A stretch of DNA of 64,000 bases, taken from contig MU006106.1 in assembly GCA_010093705.1 (NCBI GenBank), positions 399,086-463,085 of the forward strand, written 5' to 3'. The translations under genes and the position numbers were made by a program. This document shows, piece after piece, positions 11,101-61,480 of the stretch. The notes beneath the pieces were generated by a model. It was given only the letters and a program-made list of their open reading frames with translations. It had not been told where the DNA came from and searched no databases. The stretch comes from Patellaria atrata CBS 101060 (taxonomy: Eukaryota). Position 1 is the first letter of the stretch. The number at the start of each line of letters is the position of its first letter.

Positions 11101-12647
11101 AAATAAAGATAGGCGATTTAGAAGCTGAGCTCAACACAGCACAGACAAATATTCAAGAAGAAAAGGAGCGGATGAAGAATATGGAGGAGCAAAACGCGGA
11201 GGAACGACGACAGCGAGAGATCCTGGACAACAAGGAGAAATCCGAAGTCCAAAAGACCTTCAACGAGCTCAATAACCAACTGACCAAATCGAAAGATGAG
11301 GTCAGGAAATTACGAAAGAGTCTATCTACAAAAGAGGTGGAAGCAACGACATGGAAACAGCGTCTCGACGAGCTCGAAACAAATCTTCGCGAGGCACTTG
11401 GTAACCTCAACGGCACCAGATCCAGCCTCCTCAAGGTAGACCCTCACAAATGCTCAGCACAGTTCATCATCAGTAACCTCGTTCAGGACATCACCAAACT
11501 TCAGCAAGACCTGGACAACACCATCCACGAGCTTGACACGACGCGTAACGAGCTTGTCGAAAAGGATCGTCTTCTGCGAAACCGCGACGCCCTGCTAGAG
11601 AGCACAGGACTCGAAAGCCGCAGACTTTCAGATCTCCTCGACAAAGAGCGTCAAGCGAGGAAGCAAGAACGACACCATTTCGAGCAAGCTCAACGCACGC
11701 ACCAGACCACCACGCGAACGATACAGCAGCATGAAACCCGTGTGCTCGAGCTGGAGACGGCTCGAAGCCAAGACCGCCGCAAACTCGCTAACCTAGAGCA
11801 GAACTACCAGAACCAGCTCCTGGACCGCAACAACCTCCTGCTCGCGCTGTGGAACAGACTCATGACGCTTTGCGGCACCGACTGGGCACAAAAGCACAGC
11901 CTCGTCAACGGCGAGCTCATCTCCCTTGACGTCATCTCTCGCAACCTCGCCGGCTTCAATAAGAACATCATCCTCGCGGTCAAGAACGTGGAGAGCCTGA
12001 TCGGCGACTTCCGCGCCCGCATCCGCAACATCGAGCGCGATCTCTGGAAGGAATACCAGAAGCTCGAACACACGCTCGACATCCGCGTCAAGCGGCTCGA
12101 CCAACTCGAACGCGCGATGCCGACTAAAGACGGCAAACGTCTGACTCCGTCCCGCATCCCGAGCCACACCGAGAGCGCGGAACTCATGCGTTTAAGGAGT
12201 GAGAATAAGATGCTCAAAGCTGAGATCCAGTTTAACAAGCAACTCGACCCGCCGCCTCCTCCCCGCACAGACAGCGAGGAGGACTTCCACCCCGGCATCC
12301 CACACCCCTCACCCCCGACGAAGGTCAAGCGCGCCAGCGTCGCGAACACGCTGCTCAGACATCATAGCACGTCGGCGGTCGAGGCGCTGCAGCAGGGTGT
12401 CGCGGAGCGGGAGCGCGAGGTGGTGCCGATCCAGCAGATCGCGACGCAGGAGGCGACGGATCGCAGGTGGATTCATAGACTGAAGGAATTGGAGAGGCGG
12501 CTTAAGGCGGAAAGGGAGGCGAGGTTGTTGGATCGGAGTGGGGCGCGCAAGAGGCTAGAGGAGAAGGAGTTGGTTAATGAGGAGTTGAGACTAAAGCTTG
12601 AGAGGGAGAGGAGTAGGAGGGAGAGTGCGGAGGGGGGGACGGGGTAG
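8157..12647 (+). CDS. apsB: MTOC / gamma-tubulin recruiting coiled-coil protein, ApsB/Mto1 family
   Basis: Centrosomin CM1 motif TLKEQNSKIDSLSKENFDLKLRIYYL, long coiled coils, and C-terminal WIHRLKELERRLKAEREARLLDRSGARKRL motif typical of Mto1/ApsB. Probable in-frame 51-nt intron 11436-11486. Confidence 0.85.
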   Translation: MAGSSHEGEDLRTFEIPDSDLPPLPTDDDEFLGDESAFGDSQVNSDGILLDKELNRKLMDVESSFLPELSPQNATSAAPVGVDDTYLFGGSPGHTRPRSRMSGRSHGEQDVSEISKMDSPSPEEHALPSSSSPATPEDAYKTPAPARIENEVDFQAGDTTHDDTEDTNTSSIDVPSSPTAAAAQRNLARTVSRDALNNRNGDEENYDAVDTADESKRKTKSPGSPRPTSRASTVKATVTPDDETSLLPSHDNPIQSVEEDTSTTDATASSLLRKRPSYLTNRLASQRSSTSSIANKSDYSADARSDATLGADFALQSGGAAPAVSSTRSSYGLSRLPSLGSIVSGYSDSGQSYDPRRSISGFQSLGGLQGDKTLERLEEQERENSMSPPPATPRKDGNTAQAPTDTVIAQHLKNIQVPDTIAKKYREERAKSPDKRSIGLPLGRSRNNLTLKEQNSKIDSLSKENFDLKLRIYYLDQALQAHSDEGVKEMIAKNVQLQTDLATEKKETQSLRRKVRELERKLKAHEEDKTNTKVSEQDEETGSNSSFRNAELEEEIIYLRECLQHSEVQIEKLREDGLAKEVEKRRLAEYVKSMSDRGVPEPVAGVEEAMEMWKDLLQAETARREQADEDAQKLREEIRRLKSETPSTTNHHVRNVYQISKRNHTSYTSRSLSGASDNTNDQNGRQSMQSGSTMTLVDQLKHENAELRRDLGAQTSMLTSRNRERERLQQEIEDLKLTQRRGDGRSIAGDSIFERSISRAHQRSVSRASGATGMTKNTQLSDAERDDYENKQATLRDELANAKLENQELEREFNAHLTVLDQTEADVRALKEERDLLMNDIQAIQTERDDILLSLEEKEAECENLKVKAETTIRQLDDELDKKDQDISQLVQELENRNEDFAALQDEMKNVSGSLIQLEDDLLAKQQKIQTLEAELDDANRELDTLDKRLSETTSKNERLEVQLESTQGEIAFLREEQEGDKIKIGDLEAELNTAQTNIQEEKERMKNMEEQNAEERRQREILDNKEKSEVQKTFNELNNQLTKSKDEVRKLRKSLSTKEVEATTWKQRLDELETNLREALGNLNGTRSSLLKVDPHKCSAQFIISNLVQDITKLQQDLDNTIHELDTTRNELVEKDRLLRNRDALLESTGLESRRLSDLLDKERQARKQERHHFEQAQRTHQTTTRTIQQHETRVLELETARSQDRRKLANLEQNYQNQLLDRNNLLLALWNRLMTLCGTDWAQKHSLVNGELISLDVISRNLAGFNKNIILAVKNVESLIGDFRARIRNIERDLWKEYQKLEHTLDIRVKRLDQLERAMPTKDGKRLTPSRIPSHTESAELMRLRSENKMLKAEIQFNKQLDPPPPPRTDSEEDFHPGIPHPSPPTKVKRASVANTLLRHHSTSAVEALQQGVAEREREVVPIQQIATQEATDRRWIHRLKELERRLKAEREARLLDRSGARKRLEEKELVNEELRLKLERERSRRESAEGGTG

Positions 12648-14623
12648 GGGAAGAGGGAAGGGAGGTGGCTGAGGCCCTTCGTGAGGGTGGAAGGGGGTAT
12701 GGATGTGTATTGTAAAAGTTTCTTCTTCTTAATTTCTGGATAGGGGGTTCAGGGTTCGGTGTTTGGGTCCTTTTGGTGGGATGGACATCCACTAGGCGCT
12801 GAGAATGGGCTTCGCGATAGCATACCCGGATTTACTAGCTCGTGCGTCCGACTTCTTTATGGAGTATTTGTAGGACAATTGGAGGTCGGTATGAACTTAT
12901 ACGGATTCTGTTCGCAGCTGTGTCCACCATGTGTTCAGGCGCCTGTGGTGTCGTGGGATTTCACTTGTCACCCGTGCTTTGATAGGTTCCTCTGTCAACC
13001 GTATAGCGTGACTACCCACGTCGCCAGTTTCGTCGATTCTCCAGCATATATACGATCAGACAGAACAATGGTACGTTGCTTATTTACAAGACGAAGCAGT
13101 ATCTAGGGAACGGGATAGGTGCTGTAGACCGTCGATCTTATTCGCTACACGGAATGTTGGTAGGTATATCTACCCCTGATAGTCGTGTAGACCTATCACC
13201 ATAGGAGTACAACTCCCTTTCTAGTGCATAAGAGGTAGGATATATAAGAGTTCAATGGAGCGAACGCACTAGCGTGTTCACTGGAGGTTAGTCGCTGAGA
13301 GGGTATGTGATTATACGCTCTGGTATGATTAGATGACCTTAGAAGGTTTAGGTTGGTTGGGATGGTTGTTATGTTGGAGGTATCATGGTTGTGATGTGTG
13401 TGATCTGGTTACGAGGTTGCTATCATTGATGAATTGTGACCTGTGCGTTGCAATATTGCTGTGATAATAGATATGGGAAACGGGATCAATAAATATAACT
13501 CCGTAATGTGATATAGCTTCCCTCGTACTACATGCTATGTGATATACGCTCCCATCGTGGTTACGGAAAGAGAGAGGACATTGTGACTTGCATCCACGGA
13601 GTTAACCTGACATCTTAAAAATGTAACATGGGCAAACGTGGTTTGGCACCCCAATAGCAGTGAGCAAGTCATGTACGAAGCTCGAGAACGGTCTCCACTC
13701 AACTACACTTTCGAAATGGCATCTTTATGTAGTATGCACATCGGAGACCTAAGGCTGAGGGCTATTCAACTAGTCGGTGCTATCACAATCTTGGACAGAG
13801 AAAAGGGTACGTCCGAGAAATATCCTTAGTAAGAAGTGAAAGTGAAATGAATGAGCTTGAAAGGCATCCTGTCATGGAGTGTGTCATATGTTAGGATGAA
13901 TTTAACTAGAATAGATACGGAGGAGATTTGGTGATCACATGGGCTGAAGGCGAGAGAGGCAATATTTTGGATCAAGAGGTGATGAAATGATAAGTAAAAA
14001 GGTGCTAACGACTGGGATTTCTCCATCAAGATCACGTTGATGGTAGTCAGTCCTTGAGAAAGACACCAAAGCTTACTGAAAGTTGACTTGTAAGTTGTAA
14101 GAAGAGGTTTTGATGAAACGTGACTTCATAAGCATCACTCACGTGCACCTCACCACAGTTGTTTGATAACCGATCACCGGGACCGGTATTTAAGACTTTC
14201 TTGGAGTTTAAGGGAGAGAGTCTTCGTACAAGTAAATCTCAAGATTCTACGATCTTCTTCCACGTGGCGTCAAATCACTTTTTACGCCCACTGTTTATAA
14301 GAGCCTCCCGCGGGGGACTGGCCTGCGTCTCGCAACCTTAACACACAAACTTCCAGAGACCTGTTTTCTAGAAAACAACGATCTTCATCAAACAACTCAT
14401 ACAGCGAGCGCTTCGAGTGTCCTTGAGCTAAGTCGAAGTTACGAGACTCATTGCATCGGAAATGTGATTCTCTCAGCTCTCAGGACGAGATAAGCAAACG
14501 TAGTTTTCAGCAACATCAAGGAAAGTAAAACGGTCAGTTTCTGTCATCGTCGCTCTATCCAAGCATTGAGATGTCCAGTTTCCAATGATGCTGACAATAA
14601 GTGAAGGATATCGCTCTGCTATC

Positions 14624-21096: not shown

Positions 21097-21269
21097 GGGG
21101 ACTGCTTGACCGATCAGGAGAGGTTACGGGTTGATTTACTCTTGTTGCATTAGCATTGTACAGTTGAATGACGACCCCCGTCCTGAGGGGTAACAAAATA
21201 ATCCACATTCCGCCCAATCGATTTGAAAGTATGAATATCCATTTGACATGCCTACTTTGGACAATCCAC

Positions 21270-22649
21270 TCATATATCCTTCGGCGGCAACATGATAACA
21301 TACTCCCTCTCACTCGTCCCAAACCTCAAAACATCCTTATCCCTCACCTCCACATACCGCCTCGCCTCCACACGGTCCCCATTCAACCACGTTCCATTCG
21401 CGCTCTCCAAATCAATCACATACGGCCGCACCTTGCCGACCTTCTCCCCAAACTCGCCCTTCCGCTTCGTCGTGTACCGGAACTGGAGCACCGCGTGCTG
21501 CTTGCTCACGCTCGGGTTCTCGGCCAGTATGTCCGCGACCACGGCTTCCCGGCCCACGAGCCACACGCTCGAGGTGTGCAGTTCGAGAGTGGAAAGTACG
21601 GACGAGCCTTTGAAGATGTAGAGGCGCCAGGGGCTGCTGGAGGGGGGTTTCCGCGCATCTGGGGGTTCGTGGTATTTTAGCACGACGGAGGTGCCGGCGA
21701 CGGTGTTGGTTTCGAGCGCGAGGAGACCAGTTGGAGCGTAGTTTGGGGTTTGCTTTTCGGGGAGGGGTGAGGGGGCCGAGGGATCCGTTGGGGGGTTGCG
21801 TTTGTGGGGTTTTTGGGGTCGGGCTGATGGGTCTTGGGTTCTGTAGGAGTCGAGTTGGGAGGGGAGGGGGTTGCGGGTGCGTGGGGCTGGGGAAGGGGAG
21901 GGTTTGTGGTGTGTAGGAGGAGAAGGAGAGTTTTTGCGACGTGCAGGAGAAGGAGAAGGAGAGGGTTTTCGCCGTTTGAGCGGAGAACGCGGATGTGAGC
22001 CATCTCGGTGTTTTCTAGACTTGTCATCGTTGTATCTGCCACGTCCATCGGGAGATCGAGCGTAGTGTCGTCTGCGGTCTCTACTGACTTCTTGTTCTCG
22101 TTTTTTGCTCCTGCTCCTGCTCCTTATTCGCCGCTCTGGCCTTCTATGGTAGTAGTCGGGGCTTCTGCTCCTACGATCTCCTCTTCTGCGCCCATCTGGG
22201 CTTCTACTCCTGCGATGATTTCCCCAATTCCCACGCGGACTCCTACTCCTGTAATGTCTCCTTCTACCTTCGTCTGGACTACGGCTTCTGCGATCCCGCC
22301 GTCTATAGTCATCTCTGCTCCTACTTCTACGTTCTCGTCTTCTATGATAATCCACGCTACTACTACGACTCGTTCTCCGTCTAGGTGGTTCTCTACTTCG
22401 ACTCCTACTCTTTTTCTGTCTTCTCGAGCCAACATTTCCTGCTGGACTTGTTGATCGCTCCAGGGAAGGCCCTCCACCTCGTATGCGATCTACCGACCGA
22501 TCCCGTTTAGCAACAGGGTTAGGTGAGATGTCTCTTCTTTCATCTCTTGACCGCTTCTCAGACCGTCTCTCCCTGGGGCTATTTGAGAGCGAACGTTGGC
22601 GGCCGTACTCGAGTGAACGAGTTGGCGGTGTTGGAGAATCGATACCCAT
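21270..22649 (-). CDS. PML1: FHA-domain RES-complex splicing factor, SNIP1/Pml1 family
   Basis: RS/RD-rich N-terminus, LKYHEPPDARKP, WRLYIFKG, FHA motifs GRE, SVSKQHAVLQFR, IDLESANGTWLNG, FGTSEREY. First ATG at 22649 (MGIDSPT). Confidence 0.88.
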   Translation of the reverse strand: MGIDSPTPPTRSLEYGRQRSLSNSPRERRSEKRSRDERRDISPNPVAKRDRSVDRIRGGGPSLERSTSPAGNVGSRRQKKSRSRSREPPRRRTSRSSSVDYHRRRERRSRSRDDYRRRDRRSRSPDEGRRRHYRSRSPRGNWGNHRRSRSPDGRRRGDRRSRSPDYYHRRPERRIRSRSRSKKREQEVSRDRRRHYARSPDGRGRYNDDKSRKHRDGSHPRSPLKRRKPSPSPSPARRKNSPSPPTHHKPSPSPAPRTRNPLPSQLDSYRTQDPSARPQKPHKRNPPTDPSAPSPLPEKQTPNYAPTGLLALETNTVAGTSVVLKYHEPPDARKPPSSSPWRLYIFKGSSVLSTLELHTSSVWLVGREAVVADILAENPSVSKQHAVLQFRYTTKRKGEFGEKVGKVRPYVIDLESANGTWLNGDRVEARRYVEVRDKDVLRFGTSEREYVIMLPPKDI

Positions 22650-23456: not shown

Positions 23457-26242
23457 ATGGCCTCACGCTTCTTGACGACTCGGACGAACAAGTCGGATTC
23501 TCGAAACTCTCTTGAACTTCATTGGAGCGACCTTAGGACCGTAGCTTTAGAAGCCACTGATCCCAGTTACGACACTTTCTCACCCGATAAACGTTCTGGA
23601 AAGGTATGAGATAAGAATTCGGGTCACAATTGTTGCAATGACATATTAAATCCCAAGTCGCATCTGAACTGAGCTAATAAGGAATAGAGTATAGGAAAGC
23701 CTCGTCGAAAACCAAATCCCCTGAAACTGAAATCACCAAACTCGACCGGATTCTTCAATTCGCTTTTCACTCCACTCAAAACACCAGGAGTAAGCCCGTA
23801 CAAGCCCCAAACATTGGATAAACCATTACCGAGGAGACCTAGATCACAGACAGATCCGCCTGTATTTCAAATTGCAGAATTACCTGGATCGATATTGTTG
23901 GAAAATCGAGGATTTCCTCTGACTGCCATTCCTGTGGAAGGACCGTCAGGAGGTACAGAATATAAGAGAACATCTCGAAGCTCTTACAGACCCGTTGGAA
24001 GAGCTCATTCCAGTCCTACAGAGGCTACCAGACCTTCGTATACACATAGGAGTGCAGCTAGCGAATCCAGAATCGATCTGCAGTCACAGAATGCGCAGAC
24101 TTTAGAACCGGAACGAAAAGATGATGCACAAGTTGTAGCGACGCAAAATCCATCAAGTGAGATTGTACAGATATTACTCGAAGAGGAACAGCATCCACTT
24201 AATACCACAGAGGTTAGTCAGGGGCGTCAACTCCGTACGGAGGTGCATGTATTAACGTTGAATACGATAGGTGCCAAAACATCAAAATAAGCCCTCAGCC
24301 GATGTACAGGTTTTGTACCAACTTTTGGAGCAGCAAAATGAGGACTATTTTCAGCTACAAAGGGATCATGAGTCGTACATATCTAGTCTACAAGACGCAC
24401 ACGTCAGGGAAATTGCAACTGTAAGGACATATTATAGCAGATTGCTTCGCAAACTACAGCAGGAAGACTCGCATGGTAAGTGAACTTAGTCCGGATGTTG
24501 AATCATACAGTAACGGCCATCTAGCCAATTCGGCACGTCCTGCTCTCGATACGGGCTTCGTAAAATCCAACGGACTTCCCACTCCCGGTCTTTCCGCTAC
24601 AGGTAATCGTTCGTTTCGAGTTACTCTTGATACAGAGATACGAGCTACTACAAAATCAGAGGATGTAGAATCCCTGAAAAAGAGACCCAGTCTTTCCCAA
24701 AAGCGCGTAATCGAAGCGGACACTGTTCGGAAAGAACTTGATAGTCTTCGTATAAGTCTCGACGAGGAGCGTGAAAGATCCACCAAAGCTCAAGAAAGAG
24801 AATTTGCGTTAAACTGTGCTCTTTCAGAGTTAAAGAAGAGACTGGAACCTGCGTGGTTAGACATCAGTGCCCGCGAAACCCTCGAAGCACGCCTCCAGAA
24901 CGCGTGGATGCAAATGCATGATACTAATGAGGAGAACTATGCTTTACAAGTTTCAATGCAGATGATGAAGAAGCGAACACTCAAGTTGACGCAAGATATC
25001 AAGTTACTCAAACTCCACTCGAAGAATGAAAATCTCGATAGACTCTCCTTGGAGCTGGAAACGACCAAATCTCGCAACGACCACCTCGAAAAGCAATTAT
25101 GCGCCGCGACCGATCGTAATCGAGTACCATCGATCATTCTTGAATTCGCGAAACAGATCGAGGTATTACAGCAAGAAATCAAACAAAGCCATAGAATGAT
25201 CGATCACCTCCAACAACAAAATGATTTGTGCCCTCTTCGTTTTTTGACGGGCAGAGAACAGCAACTCGCAACTTGTGATCACAGTAAGGCTAGATGTGAG
25301 GTTGAAGTGTTGCGAGATGAGGTATCCAACTTGAAAGATAGGGTAATCGAGGACGAGAAAACTATCAACAAGTTAATGCAGTCTAAAATTCGGGCAGACG
25401 CTGATCGTCTAGACAAACACCAGCTTCAAAACAAGTTGCTCTCAAGGATGATGTCTAGAGTTGGCAGTGAGCTCGATCTCTCGCGGAAGAAGTCACTGAT
25501 TCAGCAAAGATATATATCTTCTTCTGCAATCTCAGAGACGGACCAAGCTGAGGATCTCATTAACCAACGCTTCCGCACCGCACGCCTCGAGAAGGAAATC
25601 GATTATTACGTCAACGAGATAGTGATTTACGAGAGCGAAAAGCGCGCTTACAAACGCGATATCAAGCGCTTAGAATCCAAATTCAAGAAGGCAGAAAGCG
25701 GGACCAACAGTACTTACACCGGCTCTTCGACACCGTCACTTACAACATCACCGTCCTCATCAGCCGGCCCTAGTATGGACACTCCACTTAACACGGTCGG
25801 ACTCGGTCTCGGTCTCACATTCACCCCTGACCCTAATTCTCTAAGTCCCACTTCGCGCCGTAAACCCGCGTTTCCTCGCCTCGACAGCTCTTCCAACACT
25901 ATCCCCACTTATACCCTACCATTCCCTCTGGCACCCAAGATCCACCCACCTCTCCCCATGCCTACTTCTACAACCCCTTCTCAGGGGCCTCACCACACTC
26001 CTTCAAACCCTCTTGTTACCCTCGCAACTCCTATCCAACTCAAACAGGTAACCCCTCTCCAGCATATCCCCTCTGCTCTCCCCGTTACTCCTCCCCCACA
26101 GAACAGTAAACTCGCGGCTTCCCCGCACGAGGAAACGCCGCCGGGAAAACCGCCGCGTCGCGTGGATACGCAGCGCTCGCTTTCGGACAGTATCATTTCG
26201 TCGTATGCGCGGGTTTCCACGCCACTGGGAGCTGTGCGGTGA
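23457..26242 (+). CDS. Hypothetical coiled-coil protein with S/T/P-rich tail; 4 exons
   Basis: Introns 23604-23687, 24213-24270 and 24476-24534 join the ORFs in frame from ATG 23457 (MASRFLTT). Heptad-rich middle (LEKEIDYYVNEIVIYESEKRAYKRDIKRLE). No family recognised. Confidence 0.7.
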
Positions 26243-26989
26243 GGGATGGTGGATGAGACCTTGTTGGGTTCGGGGGTCCTCTTAGCGAAGCTATTGGAGA
26301 TGTGGGATTTGTTCATGTAGTCTTGGGTGGGAAGAGAGGATGATGGAAGTGGAATGATACCGTTATATCTTCGATTCCTGTCTGGCTTGTCTCCCTCGTT
26401 GCGCATGTCATGCGATCACAAGTCGGCTTGAATTCGAACTCGATCTGTGTCTGGACTTACTTATTACCATCTGTGTGTGTGGATGTGTGCATGACGGGAC
26501 TGCTCTACTGTATCATAGCGTCTTTTTTTTTTTTCAAACTATTACCCTTCTTCAAGCGCTCTCATTCCTATTATCCCACAGCTCTCTCCCTGTGTACTAC
26601 CCTACCCCCCTTTACTCATCCAACCTGCGTAACCTTCTCATTCTACGTCGCCTATTTCTCACCCAAACATCCGCGTACGCATCGGAATAGCACGGCGAAA
26701 TTATCTCCTTTGTCTTTCTCGTGCGTTTGGCCTGCATTGGGGTGGAGTACTGTATAGCAGTTCCAGTCCCCCACCCCATCCTGGCCCCCAAATCTCCACA
26801 TTTGCCGGTTGCGAAAGTCCGAGGCATGTACCGTACGATAACTGCGGGAAAGATGACATGGAAGGTTCAGTTTGATGGTGTGCTGTGAGAGAGAGAAGGC
26901 ATGTTGATTTGTGCCATTTTTTTTCTGAGGGGGGGTGAGGGGGGTGGGGGGTAAGAGGGTAGAGGGGGTAAGAGGGTAGAGGGGGTTTT

Positions 26990-27340
26990 GTTGTGGTATT
27001 ACCGTACCTAATATGTACTATCGATACCACTACCTTTATACTCTCCTATACTGTCCCCTATAACCCTCCCTAATACTCTCATACCGTATCGACCCTTAAC
27101 CCCTTACTCCCTACTAATACCCCTAAACAATCTAAAATCTATCAAAACCCCCGTACAAGTGCAAGTACGAAACGAGTACGAGTACGTGATCAAAACGTAG
27201 AGGACTGGCTGTACCGTATATACTATACTAGACTATATAGACTTCTCTTCCTTACAACCGTACCGCACCGTACTGTAAACGGACGCAGCTCACGAGGTCC
27301 CTTCTTTCGCATCTCAGACGCGCAGTTAGTATACAGTATA
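26990..27340. repeat. TpA-rich, CpA/TpG-poor low-complexity tract; possible RIP-degraded repeat relic
   Basis: Many TA/GTAC words (accgtacctaatatgtacta, gtacgagtacg, tatactatactagactatatag) and visibly few CA/TG dinucleotides; no ORF. RIP index not computed. Confidence 0.35.
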
Positions 27341-27659
27341 CCGGATTTCAATCAGGTGGATGGGGTCTGGTATCTCGTTCATTTCAATTTCTCATCATCA
27401 TCACTATCTCCACAACATCACAATAGAACGACACAACAAAACAACACAACACATACATAACGCAACCATGATATCATGCCACTACATATTCAGAAAAAGC
27501 CCCTAATTCCCATAGAAACCTCCATGAATCATTACAACGGAAGTACACACAGCATACTGCAATGCCACTCAGATATATAGTTTTTGATCGAAATACAATG
27601 GGATCCACAACCTTTCCTATCCCCACTCCCCCAAATCCCCTAACCATCATACAAATCAT

Positions 27660-29421
27660 CTACAACTCATCATGAACATCCGCCGCGTCTGCATCCTCGC
27701 CCTCAACCGCACTCTTCACCGCCTCAGTCGCCTCGCTCGCCGCACTCTTGACGCTCTCCGTCGCAGCCTCGGCACCCGATTTAACCGACTCAGCGGCCTC
27801 ACCTGCAGCCTCACCAGCGGCCTCGGTGGCAGCCTTGGCCTGTTCGGGCATGGCGGTCTCATCCTCATCTCTGAGCTCCAACTTCTCTTCCGCGACGTAG
27901 GCATCGACGGCATGCTTTCCGTTATCACGGATGAAGTTGGCGAGATCCTCGACGGTGCGGGAACCAGAGTAAGAGATCGGGTCTGATTTCTTGCCTGCAG
28001 GGAAGAGCTTGATGGTCGGGAAACCCTGGATCTCATCGGGGACGTCGTTGGCGGTGGCGTCGACCTTGGCGACAATGACCTTCTCGGCGTACTCGGGGTT
28101 ATTGAAGTAGAGGGCGGCTAGCTCCTCGTACTTGGGCGCAAGAGCCTTGCAGTGACCGCACCAAGGGGCGTAGAATTCGAGGAGGACGTCCTTGTCGCTG
28201 TTCAGAACGAGGTCATCGTAGTTATGGGCGACGACGACGTGGACGGGACCTTCTTGGGTTTCGGGGACGGGTTCGGACTTGATGCTGGGAGAGACCTTAC
28301 CGGCGACGAAGTCGTCAACGAATTGACCGATGGACTCGGCCGTGATTTCCTTAGTCTGGTCGAAGGGGAACTTCTGGTTTTTGACGGTCTCCTGGATGGC
28401 GAACGCGGGCCACTTGCCGACCTCGAGGTTCAAGTTAGCACCGTGTTGTCCGAAAGCTTCAGCATCGATAGTGGCGATATTGACGACACCCTTGTGCTTG
28501 GTAGCGACTGGCTTGAGCTCCTTGGCGAACCTCTCACGCTCCTCAGGAGTCGCAGCGAAGATATAGGCCAGGGGGATACCAGCGGCCATGTAGCCAGCGT
28601 ATGTCTCAGGACCAACCTCACCAATCAAAGGTGTGGCGGAGGTCTTGGCGAACTTCTCAATCGCCTCCTTTGTGAACTTCTCGGTGAAGGTGTCCTTGCC
28701 CTCATCGAAGGTCTTGTAAAGAACGATGGCGGGTTGCGACACACCCTCAGCCTCAGCGAGAGTGGCGTCGCTGGTGGCACCGAAAAGGTAGTCATCACGG
28801 AGACCGTCGGCAACAGATGAGAAGGTCTCGTTGGAGCTCTTGTCATCAGCTGCGAAGTAACCGACAATTACAACCTTATCTGAGGTCTTGAAGTCCTCTA
28901 GAGTGTCCTTTGCTAACACAGAAACGGCGGGTAAGGATTGCTTAACCATGTATGATACAATGCTGGATCCAGTCAGTTAACTCTCGAGTATTTAGCCAGA
29001 TCATAATGAACTTACGCTTGAGCTTTCCTCTGGCCGCTGTATGGTGTGATGCTATCTGGGCCACGGAAGACCTTGAGTGTGGGGTATCCTTCAACGCCAT
29101 ATGTTTGGCAGAGCTCAGTCTCCTCTGTGCAGTCAACCTTTGCTAATTGGATGTTCTTCTCCTTCAACTGTGTGGCAGCCTCTTCGTACTCGGGAGCTAA
29201 CGCCTTGCAATGCCCGCACCATGGGGCGAAGACTAATCAAAGCCATTAGCAGAGATTCGAGGAACGCAATGGTTGAATGAAGACTTACACTCTGCGAGAA
29301 CCAAATCATGCTCCTTGACGAAGTCAGCAAATGTATCTGACTTCAAGTCATGGACATCAGAAGCAGCAGCTAGAGCTGCGGCTCCAATAAGGCCAAAAGC
29401 AGCCCTGGAGAAAGCACGCAT
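27660..29421 (-). CDS. PDI1: Protein disulfide isomerase
   Basis: Signal peptide [21 protein letters not shown], two APWCGHCK thioredoxin active sites, Ala/Glu-rich tail, C-terminal HDEL ER-retention signal; two introns. Confidence 0.97.
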
Positions 29422-33122: not shown

Positions 33123-34082
33123 AACAATGCGATATGCATTCTGATCCTCTAATTGCTGTACTTTTCTTCCCTCCATGTGCTTCTTATAGCCGACCATTTA
33201 AGCAAAGTAGAATTGAGTTCCTGTACGTGATTAAAGACGAAGTATGATTTCAAGGTACTGCAGATGTATTATACCTCACAAGGAGTATTGGGCCGACTGA
33301 CCCTGAATACACAGGGGAGTAAGGGAGTCAGTACGAGGCCACGATAATAAGGTAGTCGGCGATACTACTACGATGGTAATCAATCTTGGCCGAATAGATT
33401 GGGCTATTGGCTGCGTTACTTGTTTCGCATGACAGCGAATTGTTTCCATCGCATTCAAGACGTTTTAGATCGTTTGTTCCACCTTTAGCTTTCTGCGTTG
33501 GAACATATCGTGATGTTGCTGAAAACTATGAAAGAGAGCGGAATGACTGAGTGCTGACTGAGGTGGGCGCTCCCTGAGTCTCTGACTTGCATTATTTTTG
33601 CAGCAGCCCGCCCTGCACCTTCCGCCTAAGGGCCGCTCTTGGCCTTGTCGGGACAATACCCATACCACCTCATACATGCCATACATCAACCACCTCACCT
33701 ACAGTACAACTATCTAACAACAAACGCGATACCCACTTCCTCACCGTCACAACCCTTTGCGCATTTCCTCCTGCGAGCAAGTCACCACCCGAATTACACT
33801 CCCATCGCTCGTGCTTCACTTTCCTCCCCCTACAGATCGTTCAATCACCCTGGATTGCGCCAAAAACCCTGCATCATCATCCGCTGCCCGATCACTAGAA
33901 TCTTGACGATACCACCAGGTCATAAAAAGATTCCGTGCCTCCACTGGTAACTTCCACGGAGAATTTCGATATCATAAACCAACATACAGTTCCTGATTCA
34001 AAGAGGAGGGGGAGAGTCGGTGGGCTTGGGGGAGAAGGAGAACGGTGTATTCGCGGTTGGTGCGGAGGGTGAGGGGGAGAAC

Positions 34083-38120: not shown

Positions 38121-38964
38121 TCACTTCCCCTTCGCAATCCACCCCTCCACCTTCTCCACAATCCCCTCAACCCTCTCCTGCGCCATCGCAACCCCCATAG
38201 CCGAATGCGCCTTCCCCGTCTCCCACATCCTCCCCACGCGCTCAGCCACAACCTCATGATTCCGCGCGACAACCGGCCACCGTTGTTCCCAGCTCCACAC
38301 CAGATCCCCCACATTTCGCATCGTGAGCGGAATCACGACCCAGCCGGCCGTCACACCGGCAGCGACGGGGACGCTGGCGCGGAGCAGGATGTTCCGGTTG
38401 CGGGTCACGATGCTGCCGGCGAGGGTTGAGACGAGCACGGTTAGTAGCCCCGGTGCGAGTTTTTCGTTGGAGGTCCGGGGGGGCGCGAGGGAGGTGAGCG
38501 TACTGGTTAGGTTGTGCTCGAGGTGCAGGGTTCGGGTCAGGAGCGCGTTTGTGTGGTCTTCGGCGCGGGTGGCGTGGTGATGAAGGTAGAGACGCGCGGT
38601 GGCGATGTGGTGTTGGAGGCGTTCTGTTGGGGTTGGTTTGCTTGGGGTGGAGTTTGAGTTGGAGAGCTCGGGAGATGATGGTGATGATGAGATTGTGGGT
38701 GTGGTTGTGGAAGGGGCGGAGGAGCTCGGTGGGTCGTAGATGGATTTGCGGGGGGTCTGTTGGATGTTAGAGTTGAGATGGTTTGAGGGTGGAGGGAGAC
38801 GGACTGTGTGTTCTTCGGCGTGGATGAGGCCTTTTGGGTAGAGGAGTAGGCCTGTTGTCATGGCGAGCGCAGCTGGTGCAATGGCACCCTGGTGTTATCA
38901 GCACTTTGTAGCGAGTATTCATTGTGAGGTCACTTACCTGCCGTAATATAGGCCTAAATGCCAT
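38121..38964 (-). CDS. MIC26: MICOS subunit Mic26/Mic27 (apolipoprotein O family); 2 exons
   Basis: MAFRPILRQ|GAIAPAALAM..., RKSIYD, PTPTERL, SLAPPRTSNEKLAPGLLTVLVSTLAGSIVTRNRNILLR, PLTMRNVGDLVWSWE; intron 38937-38889. Confidence 0.85.
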
Positions 38965-39180: not shown

Positions 39181-41541
39181 ATGTTGCAGAGCTTGAAGGC
39201 GCGAGCTTGGACTTGTGCCAGATGCCTGCGAAAGCAGCGCCAGAATATTAGAGCCATCACCATCCAAACCCAGTCCCATAAAGCTATCAATCACCCTCCG
39301 CCGGCCAGCTACGCCCCTCCAGATTCCACCCACGACGACCGTATCCTCCGCCAGATATTCGATTCTCCGAACATATGGCGGGACTTCACACAGACGCGGA
39401 AAGATCCCCTATCGCACAAGTCCGCGGGTCTGTTTCAGAACCGATATCTCACGCGACCCGATGGCTTCCAGCAGTTCGCCGCGGTCACCCTGCAGAAGTG
39501 TAGGAAGATAGTGGATAAGGTGTTGGCTGCTTCTACAATCGAAGCGTATAGAGGGCTCTCTAGAGATCTGGACAGGCTCAGTGATCTCCTCTGCCGTGTC
39601 ATTGACCTGGCAGACTTCGTACGAAGTACCCATCCTGATTCTCGCATGCAACATGCGGCCTCTCAAGCTTACGGCACCATGTTTGAATACATGAACGTCC
39701 TAAATACTACAACGGGTCTAAATGACCAGCTGAAGAGGGCCATGGCTATCCCAGAGATCGTGAATTCTTGGAGTGAGGAAGAGAAAGTCGTGGCGCAGAT
39801 ATTGATAAAGGATTTCTCCAAATCCGCTATAGACCTCCCGGAAAGAGATAGGCAGAGATTTGTTGAACTGTCAAATGCTATCACACAGGTGGGAACTGAA
39901 TTTGTGGACACAATGACGCCGGCGACGGAACATTTGACGATCGACAGTAGTAAAATGAGAGGCATGGATCCCAGAGTGGTAAAGAGCTTGATGCGATGGG
40001 GTAAAGTAGTACTCCCAGCTATTGGCATGCCGGCGATGATGGCAATGAGGCAGGTTGAGGACCCAGAAATCCGGCGAGATATCTACATGGCAAACCGTAC
40101 AGCCTCAAGTGGAACCATATCTCGCTTGGAGGAGCTCCTGATGAGGAGAGCAGAGCTAGCAAAGTTGTCTGGATATGACAGCTTCGCAGAGATGGCGCTG
40201 TCCGATAAGATGGCAAAATCACCTGAAGCCGTCAATCAGTTTCTAGGTGCTCTTGTTAAGGACAATTACCAACGCGTCCATAACGAGCTACAAGAGCTTC
40301 TCGAGTTCAAGAAAGCGGACGCGCGTAATAACAATTCGCCTAGCCAGCTAAATGCATGGGATAGGGATTATTATACGTCCCGTCTATTATCGACGATGCA
40401 TAGCAAGATCCGCTCCCCAGATTTTCTATCAGCTTACTTCTCTCTTGGGACAGTAATGCAGGGGTTATCTCGTCTGTTTAGTCGGTTATATGGCATCCGC
40501 CTTGTCCCTCGAGAAACGCTACCGGGGGAAACTTGGAATGACGATGTACGACGGCTAGATATAATCGACGACACCACCGGCCACATCGCCGTCTTATACT
40601 GCGACCTCTTCTCCCGTCCCGGAAAGAGCCCCAACCCTGCTCACTTCACCATCCGCTGCTCTCGAGAAATCTCACAGCATGAAATCGAAGAAGCGGGAAC
40701 AACCTCCCACCCCTTCGCCGTTCCTGTTGAAGCTGCCACAGACGGTATGGCCAGCGCCCTCAATCCTAACACCGGCACCATCTTCCAACTCCCTACCATA
40801 GCCCTCATCTGCGACTTCGAGCGTTCCCCCTCCTCCTCCCATCGTCCCACCCTCCTCAACTTCCGCGAAGTCCAGACCCTCTTCCACGAAATGGGCCACG
40901 CGTTACATTCCATGCTCGGTCGCACGGCACTCCAGAACGTCAGCGGGACGCGCTGCGCAACTGACTTCGCCGAACTACCTTCCGTCCTAATGGAGCACTT
41001 TGCCGCCGCCCCCGAGGTTCTAGCGCTCTACGCCCGGCACTGGGAAACCGACGCCCCGCTCCCCTACCGCGTGATCGAGAACCGCCTAGCCATCGACCGC
41101 CGCATGGCCGGCGCAGAAACCGAATCCCAGATCCTCCTCGCCATGCTCGACCAAGCATACCACTCCCCGCTCCCCCTCTCCACAGACTTCGACAGCACAG
41201 CCACCTACCACGATATCTTTGAAGCCTACGCCAGCATCCGCGAGCCCCGGGGGACGGCGTGGCAGGGCTTTTTCGGCCATCTGTATGGGTACGGCGCGAC
41301 GTATTATTCGTATCTCTTTGATCGCGCGATCGCCGGGCGGATTTGGAAAGATGTGTTTCAGAGGACAGAGAGGGGCGCTGTGGAGAGGGAGACGGGACAG
41401 AGGTTTAGAGATGAGGTGTTGAGGTGGGGAGGGAGCAGGGATGGGTGGAGGTGCGTTGCTGGTGTTTTGGGGGATGAGAGACTGGTTGAGGGGGGCACGG
41501 AGGCGATGAAGGAGGTTGGGAGGTGGGGCGTCGGTGATTAA
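39181..41541 (+). CDS. OCT1: Mitochondrial intermediate peptidase (M3 metallopeptidase)
   Basis: Presequence with WTCARC; LDRLSDLLCRVIDLADFVRSTHPD; zinc motif TLFHEMGHALHSMLGRT; TRCATDFAELPS; FGHLYGYGATYYSYLFDRAIA; intronless. Confidence 0.96.
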   Translation: MLQSLKARAWTCARCLRKQRQNIRAITIQTQSHKAINHPPPASYAPPDSTHDDRILRQIFDSPNIWRDFTQTRKDPLSHKSAGLFQNRYLTRPDGFQQFAAVTLQKCRKIVDKVLAASTIEAYRGLSRDLDRLSDLLCRVIDLADFVRSTHPDSRMQHAASQAYGTMFEYMNVLNTTTGLNDQLKRAMAIPEIVNSWSEEEKVVAQILIKDFSKSAIDLPERDRQRFVELSNAITQVGTEFVDTMTPATEHLTIDSSKMRGMDPRVVKSLMRWGKVVLPAIGMPAMMAMRQVEDPEIRRDIYMANRTASSGTISRLEELLMRRAELAKLSGYDSFAEMALSDKMAKSPEAVNQFLGALVKDNYQRVHNELQELLEFKKADARNNNSPSQLNAWDRDYYTSRLLSTMHSKIRSPDFLSAYFSLGTVMQGLSRLFSRLYGIRLVPRETLPGETWNDDVRRLDIIDDTTGHIAVLYCDLFSRPGKSPNPAHFTIRCSREISQHEIEEAGTTSHPFAVPVEAATDGMASALNPNTGTIFQLPTIALICDFERSPSSSHRPTLLNFREVQTLFHEMGHALHSMLGRTALQNVSGTRCATDFAELPSVLMEHFAAAPEVLALYARHWETDAPLPYRVIENRLAIDRRMAGAETESQILLAMLDQAYHSPLPLSTDFDSTATYHDIFEAYASIREPRGTAWQGFFGHLYGYGATYYSYLFDRAIAGRIWKDVFQRTERGAVERETGQRFRDEVLRWGGSRDGWRCVAGVLGDERLVEGGTEAMKEVGRWGVGD

Positions 41542-42168
41542 TATGGCTGTATATCAAGAGCTTCTACGAGCTGAATACTGGGTTGAAGGACGCCGACACG
41601 GGCTTTTAGATGCTTATACGGCACGTGTACATCATGAGTGGAGAGGAGATATGGGGATCTCGATTGTAAGATAGATATGTATAACATCATCAACCCCCAG
41701 CCGCCAACAGGCGCGCACTAGAGCTCGCCAGTACAGGATTCATAATGTGTACGGTTCCCCAAGTCCCCTTGCCGCCCTCGCGCCTACAAAATCTAACCCC
41801 AACTTCCGCCCACGCACCAAGTTCTCTCGAGTACAGCGAGCGTACCCACCCTCAACCCTTCCCCTAGCACCCAGCTTACGCCTGTGATACGAACGTGCAG
41901 GGCTCTAACACATCCACACAGAGACGGCACATACTAGTTATAAGTTAGTCTACAGTACGTCGTCCCGGAAACACGTGCAGGCAAAAGGTTGATCACAAGG
42001 TGCCGCCAGTCAATGGTTCGGTAAGAGGTCAGTATCACACCTAGTGAGATGGACGCATATAGTTTAGACAAACGAAATATCATTCCAATTACACTGTATA
42101 TAGTACATTATTCCACCATTCTTCCGCCACCCACGCAGTACCTATCCCATTTCATCTCTTGGGGAGGC

Positions 42169-57799: not shown

Positions 57800-59667
57800 A
57801 TGACTTCCTCCAAACCCCTAGGCCAACGGAAAGCAACCCAAGAGATAGTGCCTTCAGGTTTACAGACCACCGCAACTATTGACTCCGGCCTGACTACTCC
57901 CGGGAGCCTCGAATCCGGTAGTTCATCGTTATGTACGCAGCAACAATCTGACGAACCGAACTGGCCGAGAGAATGGAGAGCATACTCTTGCTTATTCGGC
58001 TGCTTTCTCCTCATGTTTAACAGCTGGGGCCTTGTCAACGCGTACGGCACCTATGCTTCGTACTACATGCAGCATCTATTACCAGGCCGAGATATTCTCC
58101 TCCTGAATCTCGTCGGTTCAACGCAGTCATTCATAGTCCTACTTCTCTCGTTCGTCGTGGGACGATTGTTAGATGCGGGATTTGTGAAGAACATCGTCGG
58201 ACTTGGAGCTTTTCTGGTGACGCTCGGTATGTTCTTACTGAGTGTTGTCAACGGGAAGGGTGATTACAATCAAGGGAACTATGCACTTATTTGGCTGGTT
58301 CAGGGACTCGTGACTGGGTTAGGCATGGCGTGTTTCTTCGTCTCGAGTTCCCAAGGTACATCATTAGGGATTTCCTTTACCATTAGGGAAGGAGCTAACC
58401 TTTCTTTTAGTCGCTGCTACTTGGTTCATTAAGAGAAAGACCATTGCTATTGGAATTGTAGCGTCTGGGGCTAGTATTGGTAAGTCACGTCCTGTCCAGT
58501 GAGCTTGCATTGAATTGAGCTGACTCCTTACAAGCTGGTCTCATATACCCAGTTATGACCAAGTTCCTAATCGCAAAAGTTGGCTTCAACAATGCTGTTC
58601 GTTATGTATCTACCGCCGTCGCTCTAACTTGCGTCTTATCCTGGTGGCTCGCGACACCAAACCCCCGTCACCCAATGAACAAGGTTGCCGGCACAAAAGG
58701 CTGGTGGAGGAGGTCCGAGATCTGGGTGGATTCCCACGCCTTCAGAAACCCATCCTTCTCCTGGTTCGTAGCGGCAATCTCAATCATGTTCTTCGGCTTC
58801 TACGCCATCTTCTTCAACCTCGAAGAGGTGAGTCAAATACCTCCTCCCCACAATACCCACAGAAGAGAGCACATCACTGATATATGCGTTTAGTGGGCAG
58901 CAGCACAAGGCTTCGGCATCAAAGACAACACTCCTCCCGGTCTCGATAGCGTTCACCTCGGCTCCGAAGTCCCCAAAGACGCCATCCGCACATTCTGGCT
59001 CCTCAGCATCATGAACGCCTGCAGCACCTTCGGCCGCGTCGGTACCGCCTGGCTCGGCGAACAGTACGTCTCCCTTATGTCCCCCCAGACACACTCCCCC
59101 CAAGTAAACTAACACCCACGCACCAGCTACGGCCCCCTCCTCGTCCACGCCCTCGTAACCCTCTTCGCCGCCCTCACAACCCTCCTCCTCTGGACCCTCG
59201 CCACCACGCTGCCCCTCGGCATCGCCTTCGTGGTCCTCTTCGGCATCCTGTCCGGCGGCGTCATCGGCGCGCCCCCAGCCTCCGTCGCCTGGATCCTCAC
59301 CGAGACGTCCGACTGCCCTCACAAGGCCGCGAAGCTGGGCCAGTGGGTCGGCATGATGTATAGTGTCTCTGCCGTGTTTGCGCTTACCGGTCCGGTTATC
59401 GCGGGACATTTGATCAGTCAGTTTGGCAGCTTTGTTACCGTGCAGTGCTGGAGTGGGGCGTGTTTGCTGGGTGCGGCGGGGTGTATGTTTGTTAGTTGGA
59501 GGAAGGCGGAGGGGTTGAGGAGGGGACTTGGGAGGAGGGAGGAAGAAGGGGTGAGGGTTGTGCAGGGCCAACGGCCGGATTGGAGTCGGGTTTCTACGCT
59601 TGTGGCTGAGGGGGTGTTGGAGGAGGAGAAGGAGAAGGAGAGGGAGAGCGATGAGGAGAGTAGGTGA
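57800..59667 (+). CDS. MFS transporter, monocarboxylate porter (Mch) family; about 5 exons
   Basis: LLMFNSWGLVNAYGTYASYY, VVGRLLDAG, LVQGLVTGLGMACFF, TWFIKRKTIAIGIVASGASI, IMNACSTFGRV, LTGPVIAGHL; about 12 hydrophobic segments; introns near 58356, 58480, 58828 and 59064. Confidence 0.88.
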
Positions 59668-59691
59668 TACGGTTACGGTTACGGTTACGGT
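59668..59691. repeat. (TACGGT)4 tandem repeat immediately after the MFS stop codon
   Basis: tacggttacggttacggttacggt. Confidence 0.85.
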
Positions 59692-61480
59692 CAGGCTTTT
59701 CCCGGGTTGCGTTTGGGCGGCTTCGTTGTTGTTTTGGAGACCCGATGGGCTATGATATCAAGGGACGAGTTTTGATGATGTCGTTTTTATATTGATAGCA
59801 CTATGATATGAGACTTTTGGTCATGGGCTTTGTTCTACTGCTGCTCCACTGCTCCACTGCTGTAATGTGTCATTACCGTACCCTCACTACCGCCCGCATT
59901 TGTTTCCATAGCCGCATTTTCGGTGCCACCGTTAATGTATCGCAGCGCGTGAAATGTCAAGCGAACTGGAAATTTACACTTCACGGCACTGTTGTGGATT
60001 GTGTGAGTTTTGTTCAATAACTTTTTAGTAGAGAGATTGGAGTGGGTTGTGGCTGCTGATACAACGACATTATTATACGGAAAGTCCGTGGAGAGATAAA
60101 CACTACCTTATCGAGCGAAGGTGATACAGGACAGGAGACGAGGGTACCTTAAAGTTTTGGTTTTGGATATGGAGGAAGTGAAAGGGGGAAGGGGGTCACA
60201 ACAGGGGAATTGGATTCGGAAGAGTGATTACTGCGATGGTAAGTTTGATTTGGCAGAAGCTGGGGGCGAGTTGGGAAGGAGCTCATAACGAAGAATTGGA
60301 TTTGGAAGGGGAGCTGGGGGGATCGAAAAGCGGATTTCGAAAGGAAACGATGGCAGGAGAGTGAATCTCAAATTCCTGTTTTGTGGAGATGGGGATAAGT
60401 GCCGAAGTGTAGAAATTAGAAAGAGATGGGAACTGAGCCGCGACACGATATCTAGGCGTGCTGAGGATATTGATTGATACTCTTCTTCAAGCAAAAGCAG
60501 GAAGTATTCAAGGTGCCAGTTTTGAATTCGGGTACCTGGAAACCCCCCCCCCGCGGAACTTACGGGAACTGCATTAGTTAGAGGGGGAAATATTGCGATA
60601 TGAGTACTGTGATGTGATGTCCAAGATCTACTCCAATATACGAGGTAGGTGCGCTTACCATCAAGTTTTTGTAATCCGATTCTTGAGGCTGAAGTGAGAT
60701 GCGAGCTGATATAGGAGGGTGTTTGTATATCTGGTCCCGGGAGGTTGGTACAACCTTTCGCGGACTAGGCAGAGAACTCAGGAAGTTGAACTACCGAGCT
60801 CGTCAGCGGGAGCTAGAGGTATCTGAAGACTTGAGATCGGTTAAGAGATTCGGCTGGGCGTGTTGTTGAGCTTACTGTTGTGTTTTGATAATTGGTGTCT
60901 TGCGATCGAGTGCTTGATCTCCGACGTGTGATATTACTAGGTGAGCTGCATATCTGGTTCTTGGTATAGGGCTTGGATGCAAGCTTGGGTATATATGAGC
61001 TTGGTATACTGTCCTATACGTGTCCTTCGTGGCGGAAAATTAGGGCTGTAAATCCGATGGTTTGATTGGAGATAGGAACTACCGATTTCTGGAGGGGAGG
61101 ATGAAGATATTCAGGGGCTGCAGCGTTATTCAGATCTGCCCGAGATCTGGGCGTGCAGTCGATCTGTGTGATTTTCGTCATCCCGACTCTTAAGAGAAGA
61201 TAGTATAGACATAAGGGGATATATTACAGATGTGGAGCACACTGTATATGTACGGATGAGGGTGTGGCTGCCTAGACGGGAGAGCCGTCGCCGGGCAGCG
61301 GGAGGGCGTAATAAGACATGAATGGTGCTTTTAAGAGATCTGGGCGTGCTGGCGCACAATCTCGTCATGATACATGAGGATATGATAGAATCTAGAGAAG
61401 AATCGAAGTTATCTTCTCACGCCTAGATTTGAAGAACTACCGAAATAGGCCAAGAGGTGGCAAGGGGTGCTTGAGATGTC

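What the first reader, a model, noticed from the sequence alone, without database searches (positions are those of the whole stretch)
11760..59720. Recurrent C/A-rich to G/T-rich strand-skew switch points that override codon usage and ignore gene orientation
Seen: at roughly ten places the plus strand runs through several hundred bp rich in C (and A), then flips abruptly to G (and T) richness, often in locally GC-rich DNA. Approximate switch points are 12360, 21580, 26150, 26850, 27950, 34000, 37400, 38380, 41250 and 59350. The C-then-G order holds inside plus-strand genes (apsB, OCT1, Mch) and minus-strand genes (SNIP1, PDI1, MIC26), and it continues through introns and UTRs. Simple transcription-coupled skew or amino-acid composition therefore does not explain it. 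Established: a negative-to-positive G/C skew flip is the polarity seen at replication origins where leading strands are G/T-rich. Inference: these are long-lived chromosomal landmarks, either fixed bidirectional origins or recombination/DSB hotspots with strand-asymmetric mutation and GC-biased conversion. Many lie in the 3' part of genes. This is the strongest unexplained large-scale pattern in the window; it was judged by eye, not computed.
Basis: partly seen in the sequence, partly recalled or inferred. Interest (0 to 1): 0.7.

Follow-up and report, generated by a model that had tools for sequence, protein, structure and literature searches.

The report
Mirror-symmetric skew islands at gene ends
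In this fungus about one gene in five switches from C-rich to G-rich DNA roughly 250 bases before its stop codon, inside a short GC-rich peak; it is a sharp form of a gene-end bias already described in fungi and still unexplained, and it does not mark replication origins.

Summary
All ten C-to-G switches are real and strongest at silent sites: four-fold skew runs from -0.77 to +0.80. 'Ignoring gene orientation' proves nothing, because a C-then-G switch reads the same on both strands. The switches are tied to gene ends: 7 of 9 strong window flips and 9 of 16 in 24 held-out stretches lie 100-400 nt before a stop codon (chance 9%). 13 of 68 genes carry an island. Origins fit badly: yeast origin jumps have the opposite sign, 9% amplitude and about 20-kb decay (PMC3459929), while these fade within 1 kb. 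The average pattern is published (McLean and Tirosh 2011, PMC3315797), and this scan has noted it repeatedly in other fungi and twice in this genome. What I add: near mirror symmetry of the two arms, a GC peak of 0.83 at the centre against 0.45, no sequence-context or hairpin signal, weak conservation in orthologues, and a narrow same-sense flip at 16 of 20 tRNA genes. Best guess: a break-repair or conversion footprint placed by 3'-end chromatin (0.4). Close rival: convergent antisense transcription (0.33). No recombination, RNA or polymorphism data were obtained.

The parts
11600..12800 (+). Island in the 3' end of the apsB/Mto1-like gene (8157-12647); flip 12369, 278 nt before the stop; G arm runs about 140 nt or more into the 3' flank
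   Evidence: Pfam Cnn_1N + Mto2_bdg
21172..22000 (-).
   Evidence: Pfam FHA
25700..26500 (+). Weaker island at the end of an ORF with no Pfam hit (24473-26242); flip 26114, 128 nt before the stop; silent-site contrast only 0.37, below my 0.55 island cut-off
26500..27016 (.). Non-coding flip at 26800 between two convergent 3' ends; C/T-rich then G-rich, GC about 0.48; no gene or RNA family found; unassigned
27016..28600 (-). Island in protein disulfide isomerase (stop 27660); flip 27892, 232 nt before the stop; long G arm in the 3' flank
   Evidence: Pfam thioredoxin domains
33600..34200 (+). Different class: C-rich stretch ending at 33958, 125 nt upstream of the predicted start (34083) of a MED14-like gene (name recalled, not from a call); no GC peak
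36400..37870 (+). 3' end of the MED14-like gene: C-rich silent sites up to the stop (37149), flip at 37330, 181 nt after the stop
37870..38870 (-). Island in the MIC26/27 (ApoO) gene; flip 38367, 246 nt before the stop; strongest flip in the window
   Evidence: Pfam ApoO
40570..41680 (+). Island in mitochondrial intermediate peptidase OCT1 (39181-41541); flip 41249, 292 nt before the stop (residue ~681 of 779)
   Evidence: Pfam Peptidase_M3
58900..59740 (+).
   Evidence: weak Pfam MFS_1 hit below cut-off

Best explanation
SHOWN: each island is a footprint of about 1.3 kb of strand-asymmetric base substitution, centred about 250 nt inside the coding 3' end of a minority of genes. On either side, the strand that runs 5'->3' towards the centre has gained C at the expense of T, A and G, so GC peaks at the centre and the G/C skew flips there.
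INFERRED: the footprint comes from a two-ended DNA event that recurs at that spot, most likely repair of double-strand breaks at a recombination-hotspot-type site whose position is set by chromatin at the gene's 3' end. After resection, the strand pointing to the break is the old recipient strand and the outward-pointing strand is new or donor-derived, on both sides. Any base-specific bias in heteroduplex repair or repair synthesis that favours G on the new strand therefore gives C-left/G-right, a GC peak and a decay over one tract length. Candidate biases (recalled, not tested): G:G and T:G mismatches repaired better than C:C and C:A, or dG misinsertion by repair polymerases. Averaged over all genes, such islands would give the published 3' G-skew.
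For: Mirror symmetry at four-fold sites 60-300 nt from the centre in 13 islands: left arm A .11 C .67 G .12 T .10; reverse-complemented right arm A .18 C .59 G .14 T .09; background about A .26 C .26 G .19 T .29. GC4 is 0.83 at the centre and falls to 0.48 by 900 nt upstream. Coding skew is back at the gene-strand baseline beyond about 1 kb. Near all-or-none: 13 of 68 genes have contrast >=0.55 (300 shuffles: mean 0.02, max 2) and the other 55 average 0.11 with noise-level spread. The two arms co-occur across genes (rho 0.37, n=69) and contrast tracks 3' GC4 (rho 0.56); in other fungi contrast tracks GC gain (rho 0.42, n=64). No flanking-base dependence. Introns share it. Across 27 OCT1 sequences, silent G-skew correlates with skew at codon positions 1-2 in the G arm (rho 0.63), so the force leaks into protein. 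Some flips lie in non-coding DNA, one centred on a tRNA gene. Literature: mouse resection zones average 0.75-1 kb (PMC5698624, passage); hotspots in the Dothideomycete Zymoseptoria often lie in exons, and PRDM9-less species place hotspots at transcription start and stop sites (PMC5844332, passages); mismatch resolution next to a break can be strand-biased (PMC9001825, abstract and passages).
Against: No break, crossover or polymorphism data were obtained. In Zymoseptoria gBGC was weak or absent (tested in 10-20 kb non-coding windows) and few hotspots are shared by sister species (PMC5844332), whereas 8 of 26 distant OCT1 orthologues have their best flip within 20 codons of this one. The documented mutagenic effect of resection, C-to-T on single-stranded tails (PMC5698624), would give the opposite polarity and lower GC. 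PMC9001825 found the strand bias largely independent of mismatch type, and a base-independent strand bias would leave no compositional mark. The fitted C arm is longer than the G arm (803 vs 610 nt on average). In other fungi the two arms did not co-occur significantly at four-fold sites (rho 0.14, p 0.14). The amino-acid leak was absent in the C arm (rho -0.17). Symmetry was measured on islands chosen and centred by their skew contrast, which favours a symmetric result.
Confidence: 0.4

Rival explanations
1. Convergent transcription. Genes with islands have an antisense transcript starting near their terminator. Sense and antisense polymerases run towards the centre and stall there, and in each arm the non-template strand of the dominant or stalled polymerase gains C by the same transcription-coupled mutation or repair bias that makes fungal transcript starts C-rich.
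For: Tight anchoring to coding ends in sense orientation (16 flips: median -248, SD 63 nt). In 7 of 13 islands the G arm ends 95-238 nt after the stop, about where a transcript could end. Polarity matches the 5' C-bias of fungal genes (PMC3315797), seen weakly here (C .27 vs G .18 in the 100 nt before ATG). A narrow C-to-G flip surrounds 16 of 20 tRNA genes (mean +17.6 vs intergenic -1.1, SD 16; Wilcoxon p 0.002). In Neurospora 42% of antisense lncRNAs start between 100 nt before and 600 nt after a stop codon (PMC3951366, passages). 7 of 26 OCT1 orthologues have their best flip near the 5' end.
Against: Does not readily explain a GC peak exactly at the flip. The sense polymerase crosses both arms. 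The 5' bias in this genome is far weaker (four-fold C .31 in the first 100 nt) than the arms (C .62-.74) and carries no GC gain. No significant preference for convergent neighbours (9 of 12 vs 25 of 46, p 0.32). No RNA data were obtained.
Confidence: 0.33
2. Selection on RNA or transcription: a G-rich non-template tail aids pausing, R-loop formation or termination (or C-avoidance, as McLean and Tirosh proposed), or the C arm pairs with the G arm in the mRNA.
For: The G arm runs into the 3' flank and often ends soon after the stop. A link between terminal GC skew and R-loops is reported for human genes (PMC3787257, search listing only).
Against: No specific folding beyond arm composition: mean z -0.37, 2 of 13 below -2 and 1 of 13 above +2; cross-arm pairs not raised. 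The intron in the C arm is also C-rich. Island genes share no obvious function (Pfam: P450, esterase, MAPEG, P-type ATPase, Tcp11, epimerase, glycosyl hydrolase). Orthologue strength ranges from -0.36 to +1.06.
Confidence: 0.1
3. Fixed bidirectional replication origins with G/T-rich leading strands.
For: Rotational symmetry. Density of 16 strong flips in 24 stretches of 10 kb, about one per 15 kb, is not absurd for origins.
Against: In three yeasts the leading strand is C/A-rich; the S. cerevisiae origin jump is 9% and decays over about 20 kb; the author rejects a large short-range jump at C. albicans centromeres as replication-related for these same reasons (PMC3459929 section 16). Here the jump is about 150% and vanishes within about 1 kb, with no consistent left-right difference in coding skew at 1-8 kb. 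The T/A component is inconsistent. Centres lie inside coding exons. Origins do not predict a GC peak. A small left-right difference remains in non-coding DNA at 0.5-3.5 kb but is confounded by the genes' own C-rich upstream regions.
Confidence: 0.07
4. Fork-convergence or fork-pausing sites: with C/A-rich leading strands, as in yeasts, an upward jump marks where forks meet or stall (gene ends, tRNA genes).
For: Upward jumps mark yeast termination regions (PMC3459929, passage). The flip at tRNA genes has this sign.
Against: Same amplitude and range objections as for origins. Yeast termination zones are 2-10 kb wide. Strong flips are rare at tRNA genes (2 of 20 with z>=4).
Confidence: 0.05

Closest known systems
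Opposite GC skews at the 5' and 3' ends of fungal genes, group four (McLean and Tirosh 2011, BMC Genomics 12:638, PMC3315797; parts 1-3 of 4 read, i.e. main text and methods; supplement not seen)
   Same: [quoted passage not shown] Affects four-fold sites and amino-acid use. Present in many but not all genes. Strongest G-skew near the stop codon. Cause unexplained.
   Different: The paper gives averages with a 5' emphasis and reports skew negatively correlated with GC content. Here the signal is a discrete, near all-or-none island: the C arm is strongest next to the flip, not at the 5' end; the arms are near mirror images; GC peaks at the flip; and a narrow version surrounds tRNA genes.
Replication-associated skew jumps in yeasts (Marsolier-Kergoat 2012, PMC3459929; passages and section 16 read)
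   Same: Abrupt, rotationally symmetric change of GC skew at a point.
   Different: Opposite sign at origins, 9% amplitude, about 20-kb decay, no GC peak reported. The islands resemble more the large, short-range, non-replicative jumps she describes at C. albicans centromeres (74%, about 3 kb).
Recombination hotspots with GC-biased gene conversion; intragenic hotspots of Zymoseptoria (Stukenbrock and Dutheil 2018, PMC5844332; abstract and passages)
   Same: Narrow GC peak decaying over about one resection or tract length, present at a subset of loci, able to lie in exons in a Dothideomycete.
   Different: Classical gBGC is not described as strand-specific in the passages I read. gBGC was weak in Zymoseptoria at 10-20 kb scale and hotspots were poorly conserved. 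No hotspot map exists here.

Membership tests
McLean-Tirosh fungal gene-polarity skew | G-biased coding strand near the stop codon, extending into the 3' UTR | tested here: met
   58 held-out genes: four-fold G .29 vs C .21 in the last 100 nt; 10 strongest island genes G .61 vs C .11, 3' flank G .34 vs C .12
McLean-Tirosh fungal gene-polarity skew | C-biased coding strand upstream of the G-biased end, at four-fold sites | tested here: met
   held-out genes C .31-.32 vs G .17-.20 at 300-700 nt before the stop; island genes C .59-.69
McLean-Tirosh fungal gene-polarity skew | Present in many but not all genes | tested here: met
   13 of 68 genes with contrast >=0.55; none of 61 at <=-0.55
McLean-Tirosh fungal gene-polarity skew | C-bias strongest at the promoter/5' end | tested here: not met
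   5' bias weak (C .31, G .16 in the first 100 nt); strongest C lies next to the 3' flip (C .74)
McLean-Tirosh fungal gene-polarity skew | Skew negatively correlated with GC content (as noted in the paper) | tested here: not met
   flip contrast correlates positively with 3' GC4 (rho 0.56; rho 0.42 in other fungi); a different statistic from the paper's
Replication-origin skew jump (fungal) | Leading strand C/A-rich, so a downward jump at origins | tested here: not met
   jumps are upward; polarity known only from three yeasts (PMC3459929)
Replication-origin skew jump (fungal) | Small amplitude decaying over half the inter-origin distance | tested here: not met
   -0.77 to +0.80 at four-fold sites; baseline beyond about 1 kb
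Replication-origin skew jump (fungal) | ORC/MCM binding, nascent-strand initiation | not testable with these tools
   no such data available
Recombination hotspot with biased conversion | Local GC peak decaying symmetrically over a tract length | tested here: met
   GC4 0.83 at centre, 0.48 at -900; mirror-image arms; islands were selected on skew contrast
Recombination hotspot with biased conversion | Resection-linked C-to-T loss on single-stranded tails | tested here: not met
   the strand that would be single-stranded is the C-rich one; no CpG or TpC context effect
Recombination hotspot with biased conversion | Elevated breaks, crossovers or conversions; skewed allele frequencies | not testable with these tools
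   only two runs, from one sample, were listed and no reads were laid
RIP or methyl-CpG deamination footprint | Dinucleotide-specific C-to-T loss | tested here: not met
   bias the same for all neighbouring bases; CpG o/e 1.14 and 0.99 in arms vs 0.98 background

The most novel reading that the evidence does not exclude
The islands are fossil maps of DNA-break/recombination hotspots in filamentous ascomycetes. These would sit about 250 nt inside gene 3' ends rather than in promoters as in budding yeast (recalled), persist at some orthologous genes across distant fungi, and be repaired with a strand-specific base bias (C on the strand facing the break). Hotspots could then be read from one genome sequence, and the unexplained fungal 3' G-skew would be their average.
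Probability: 0.3. Interest if true: 0.75.

Novelty: new variant of a known kind. Interest (0 to 1): 0.38.

Why it matters
The cause of the C-to-G polarity of fungal genes has been open since 2011. Resolving it into discrete, mirror-symmetric, GC-peaked islands at a minority of gene ends gives a sharp test: island ends versus non-island ends in break, crossover and antisense maps. If they are break hotspots, recombination initiation sites and a strand-specific repair bias could be inferred from single genomes across filamentous fungi. Either way the islands distort codon usage and C-terminal amino-acid composition, so they can mislead codon-bias, selection and horizontal-transfer analyses. As a finding of this window it is not new to the scan.

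Tried and rejected
Hairpin between the arms: no excess folding against arm-wise synonymous shuffles in 13 islands. Context-specific mutation (RIP, CpG, TpC): none. Replicon-scale skew: none seen in coding sites at 1-8 kb; a few-percent effect cannot be excluded. tRNA genes as general centres of strong flips: suggested by one case (L103), then tested on the 20 best-scoring other tRNA genes of 39 listed; only 2 of 20 reach z>=4 and 1 of 20 z>=6 (intergenic rates 2.4% and 0.9%), and only a narrow flip is general. Neighbour orientation (p 0.32) and gene length (p 0.13) do not predict islands; gene-body GC4 does not either (rho 0.25, p 0.12, n=39). Known RNA families at non-genic flips: none except the tRNA (7 sources). 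Sequencing runs: no RNA holder listed; two runs from one sample; no reads were laid, so transcript ends, antisense transcription and polymorphism remain untested. The first gene-finder run merged genes and was discarded; one search was used. A whole-genome scan was not possible; statistics rest on the window plus 24 stretches of 10 kb (about 1% of 28.7 Mb). Ten literature searches returned no paper describing mirror-symmetric GC-peaked islands at fungal gene ends or a tRNA-centred flip; the library lacks most subscription journals.
Full report
Setting. The window is G000:C18:399086-463085 of a 28.7-Mb, 127-contig assembly. Its OCT1 protein is 99% identical to one named for Patellaria atrata, a Dothideomycete. 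Gene models come from a self-trained HMM, not a curated annotation. 15 of 18 frames sent to Pfam had hits, including 6 of 8 window frames.

Is it real? Yes. With 300-nt arms, 14 upward C-to-G jumps reach z>=4.5 in the window, including all ten named points (z 5.8-11.4); 200 shuffles gave 0.02 such peaks on average. A stricter test (z>=6, both arms skewed) gives 9 flips in the window and 11 in 20 held-out 10-kb stretches; base shuffles give 0, and within-gene synonymous shuffles give 10.4 +/- 1.1 against 20 observed. Four more stretches gave 5 further flips. The A-to-T part of the description is weak: it rises clearly at only 5 of 10 points.

A C-rich block followed by a G-rich block is its own reverse complement, so it looks the same in plus- and minus-strand genes whatever its cause. 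The informative variable is position in the gene. 7 of 9 window flips and 9 of 16 held-out flips lie 100-400 nt before a predicted stop codon, where 9% of positions fall (held-out p 2.5e-6; median -248, SD 63 for these 16). The other 7 held-out flips lie at -594, +140 and +552 from a stop, on a tRNA gene, or far from any predicted stop (3). In the window, 33958 is a 5' C-rich stretch and 26800 is unassigned.

Anatomy. In the 10 strongest island genes, four-fold sites are C .69 at 400-500 nt before the stop, GC .88 at 200-300 nt and G .61 in the last 100 nt; 54 genes with low contrast are flat. 13 of 68 scorable genes have silent-site contrast >=0.55 (300 shuffles: at most 2), and the other 55 scatter at noise level around 0.11. 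Centred on the flip, GC4 is 0.83 and falls to 0.48 by 900 nt upstream, while skew goes from -0.77 to +0.80; non-coding sites go from -0.74/-0.67 just upstream (mostly introns, small n) to +0.64 downstream and fade by 400-500 nt. The left arm and the reverse-complemented right arm have nearly the same composition, with the caveat that islands were chosen and centred by their contrast. The bias does not depend on neighbouring bases, there is no hairpin excess, and coding skew returns to the gene-strand baseline beyond about 1 kb.

Other fungi. One metagenome scan with an OCT1 alignment returned 80 loci. I used 25 fungal loci of 5 kb or more for gene calling: 9 of 21 OCT1 orthologues and 20 of 99 neighbouring genes had contrast >=0.55, none <=-0.55 (some loci near-duplicate). 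After dropping 3 redundant loci and using four-fold sites only, orthologues of OCT1, MIC26 and the MED14-like gene (39 genes) exceeded their neighbours modestly (within-locus permutation p 0.01, 19 loci), with OCT1 ranging from -0.36 to +1.06. The best flip lay within 20 codons of the Patellaria position in 8 of 26 orthologues, elsewhere in the C-terminal 200 codons in 11, and near the 5' end in 7 (two loci are partial, the loci are not phylogenetically independent, and windows near the end are noisier). So the position is partly inherited and the strength turns over.

tRNA genes. A strong flip centred on a tRNA gene in L103 (tRNA-Gln with intron, tRNA-Arg without the intron option) prompted a test on the 20 best-scoring other tRNA genes of 39 listed. 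Strong flips were rare (2 of 20 at z>=4). A narrow flip 50-160 nt either side was general: 16 of 20 positive, p 0.002 (this window was chosen after seeing the pooled profile). It fits either a transcription-polar or a site-centred cause.

What is known. [quoted passage not shown] This finding is that pattern in island form. The scan's own notes report it in several other fungi and twice elsewhere in this genome; I had reached the gene-end reading and found the paper before consulting them, and they are unchecked. Against origins: PMC3459929 (passages and section 16) gives C/A-rich leading strands in three yeasts, a 9% jump and about 20-kb decay, and rejects a large short-range jump as non-replicative.

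Mechanism. The gene-end anchoring is shown; the cause is inferred. A GC peak centred on the flip, two near-mirror arms of about one resection length (PMC5698624 passage), presence at a minority of genes, indifference to context and some leakage into protein sequence (G arm only) are what a recurring two-ended repair event with a base-specific, strand-specific bias would leave. I put this at 0.4. Against it: weak gBGC and unstable hotspots in Zymoseptoria, the opposite polarity expected from tail deamination, and a mismatch-independent strand bias in the one assay I read. Convergent sense and antisense transcription (0.33) explains the anchoring and polarity well (PMC3951366) but not the GC peak. 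Selection on RNA (0.10), origins (0.07) and fork termination (0.05) fit worse. Earlier notes that dismiss break hotspots because the flips are gene-anchored go too far: PRDM9-less species place hotspots at transcription start and stop sites.

Verdict. A real, strong and widespread feature; a sharper variant of a published, unexplained fungal pattern; not origins. Interest 0.38. It would be 0.75 if the islands prove to be break hotspots.

Noticed in passing
window 3499-3591 (-): A tRNA gene; ARAGORN calls Val(cac) without the intron option and Ser(tga) with an 18-nt intron. No strong flip around it.
   Followed up: partly
window 59800-61870: About 2 kb of G-rich DNA (skew +0.2 to +0.5) with no predicted gene or Rfam hit, ending in a sharp G-to-C flip at 61871; holds short imperfect repeats near 61330-61530. 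Could be a long UTR or lncRNA.
   Followed up: no
L103:4250-4900 (G000:C1): Strong C-to-G flip (z 9.6) centred on an intron-bearing tRNA gene in non-coding DNA, with a long G run on the right; L120 and L124 are similar but weaker.
   Followed up: yes
L007:9126, L015:1031, L105:6153, L102:9560, window 26800: Strong flips with no predicted stop codon 100-400 nt downstream; may mark unannotated genes, long UTRs or lncRNA ends.
   Followed up: partly
L022-L054: The MIC26 gene lies next to or near OCT1 in 12 other fungal loci and a MED14-like gene in 7 (some up to L065): conserved microsynteny.
   Followed up: partly
window 11437-11487: Probable in-frame intron in the apsB-like gene that the gene finder read through (seen).
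   Followed up: no
window vs held-out stretches: Islands look denser in the window (6 of 18 genes) than in held-out stretches (7 of 50), p 0.09; regional clustering is possible but not shown.
   Followed up: partly
window 59670-59690 and 27170-27300: Short tandem or GTAC-rich motifs in the 3' flanks of the MFS and PDI genes.
   Followed up: no
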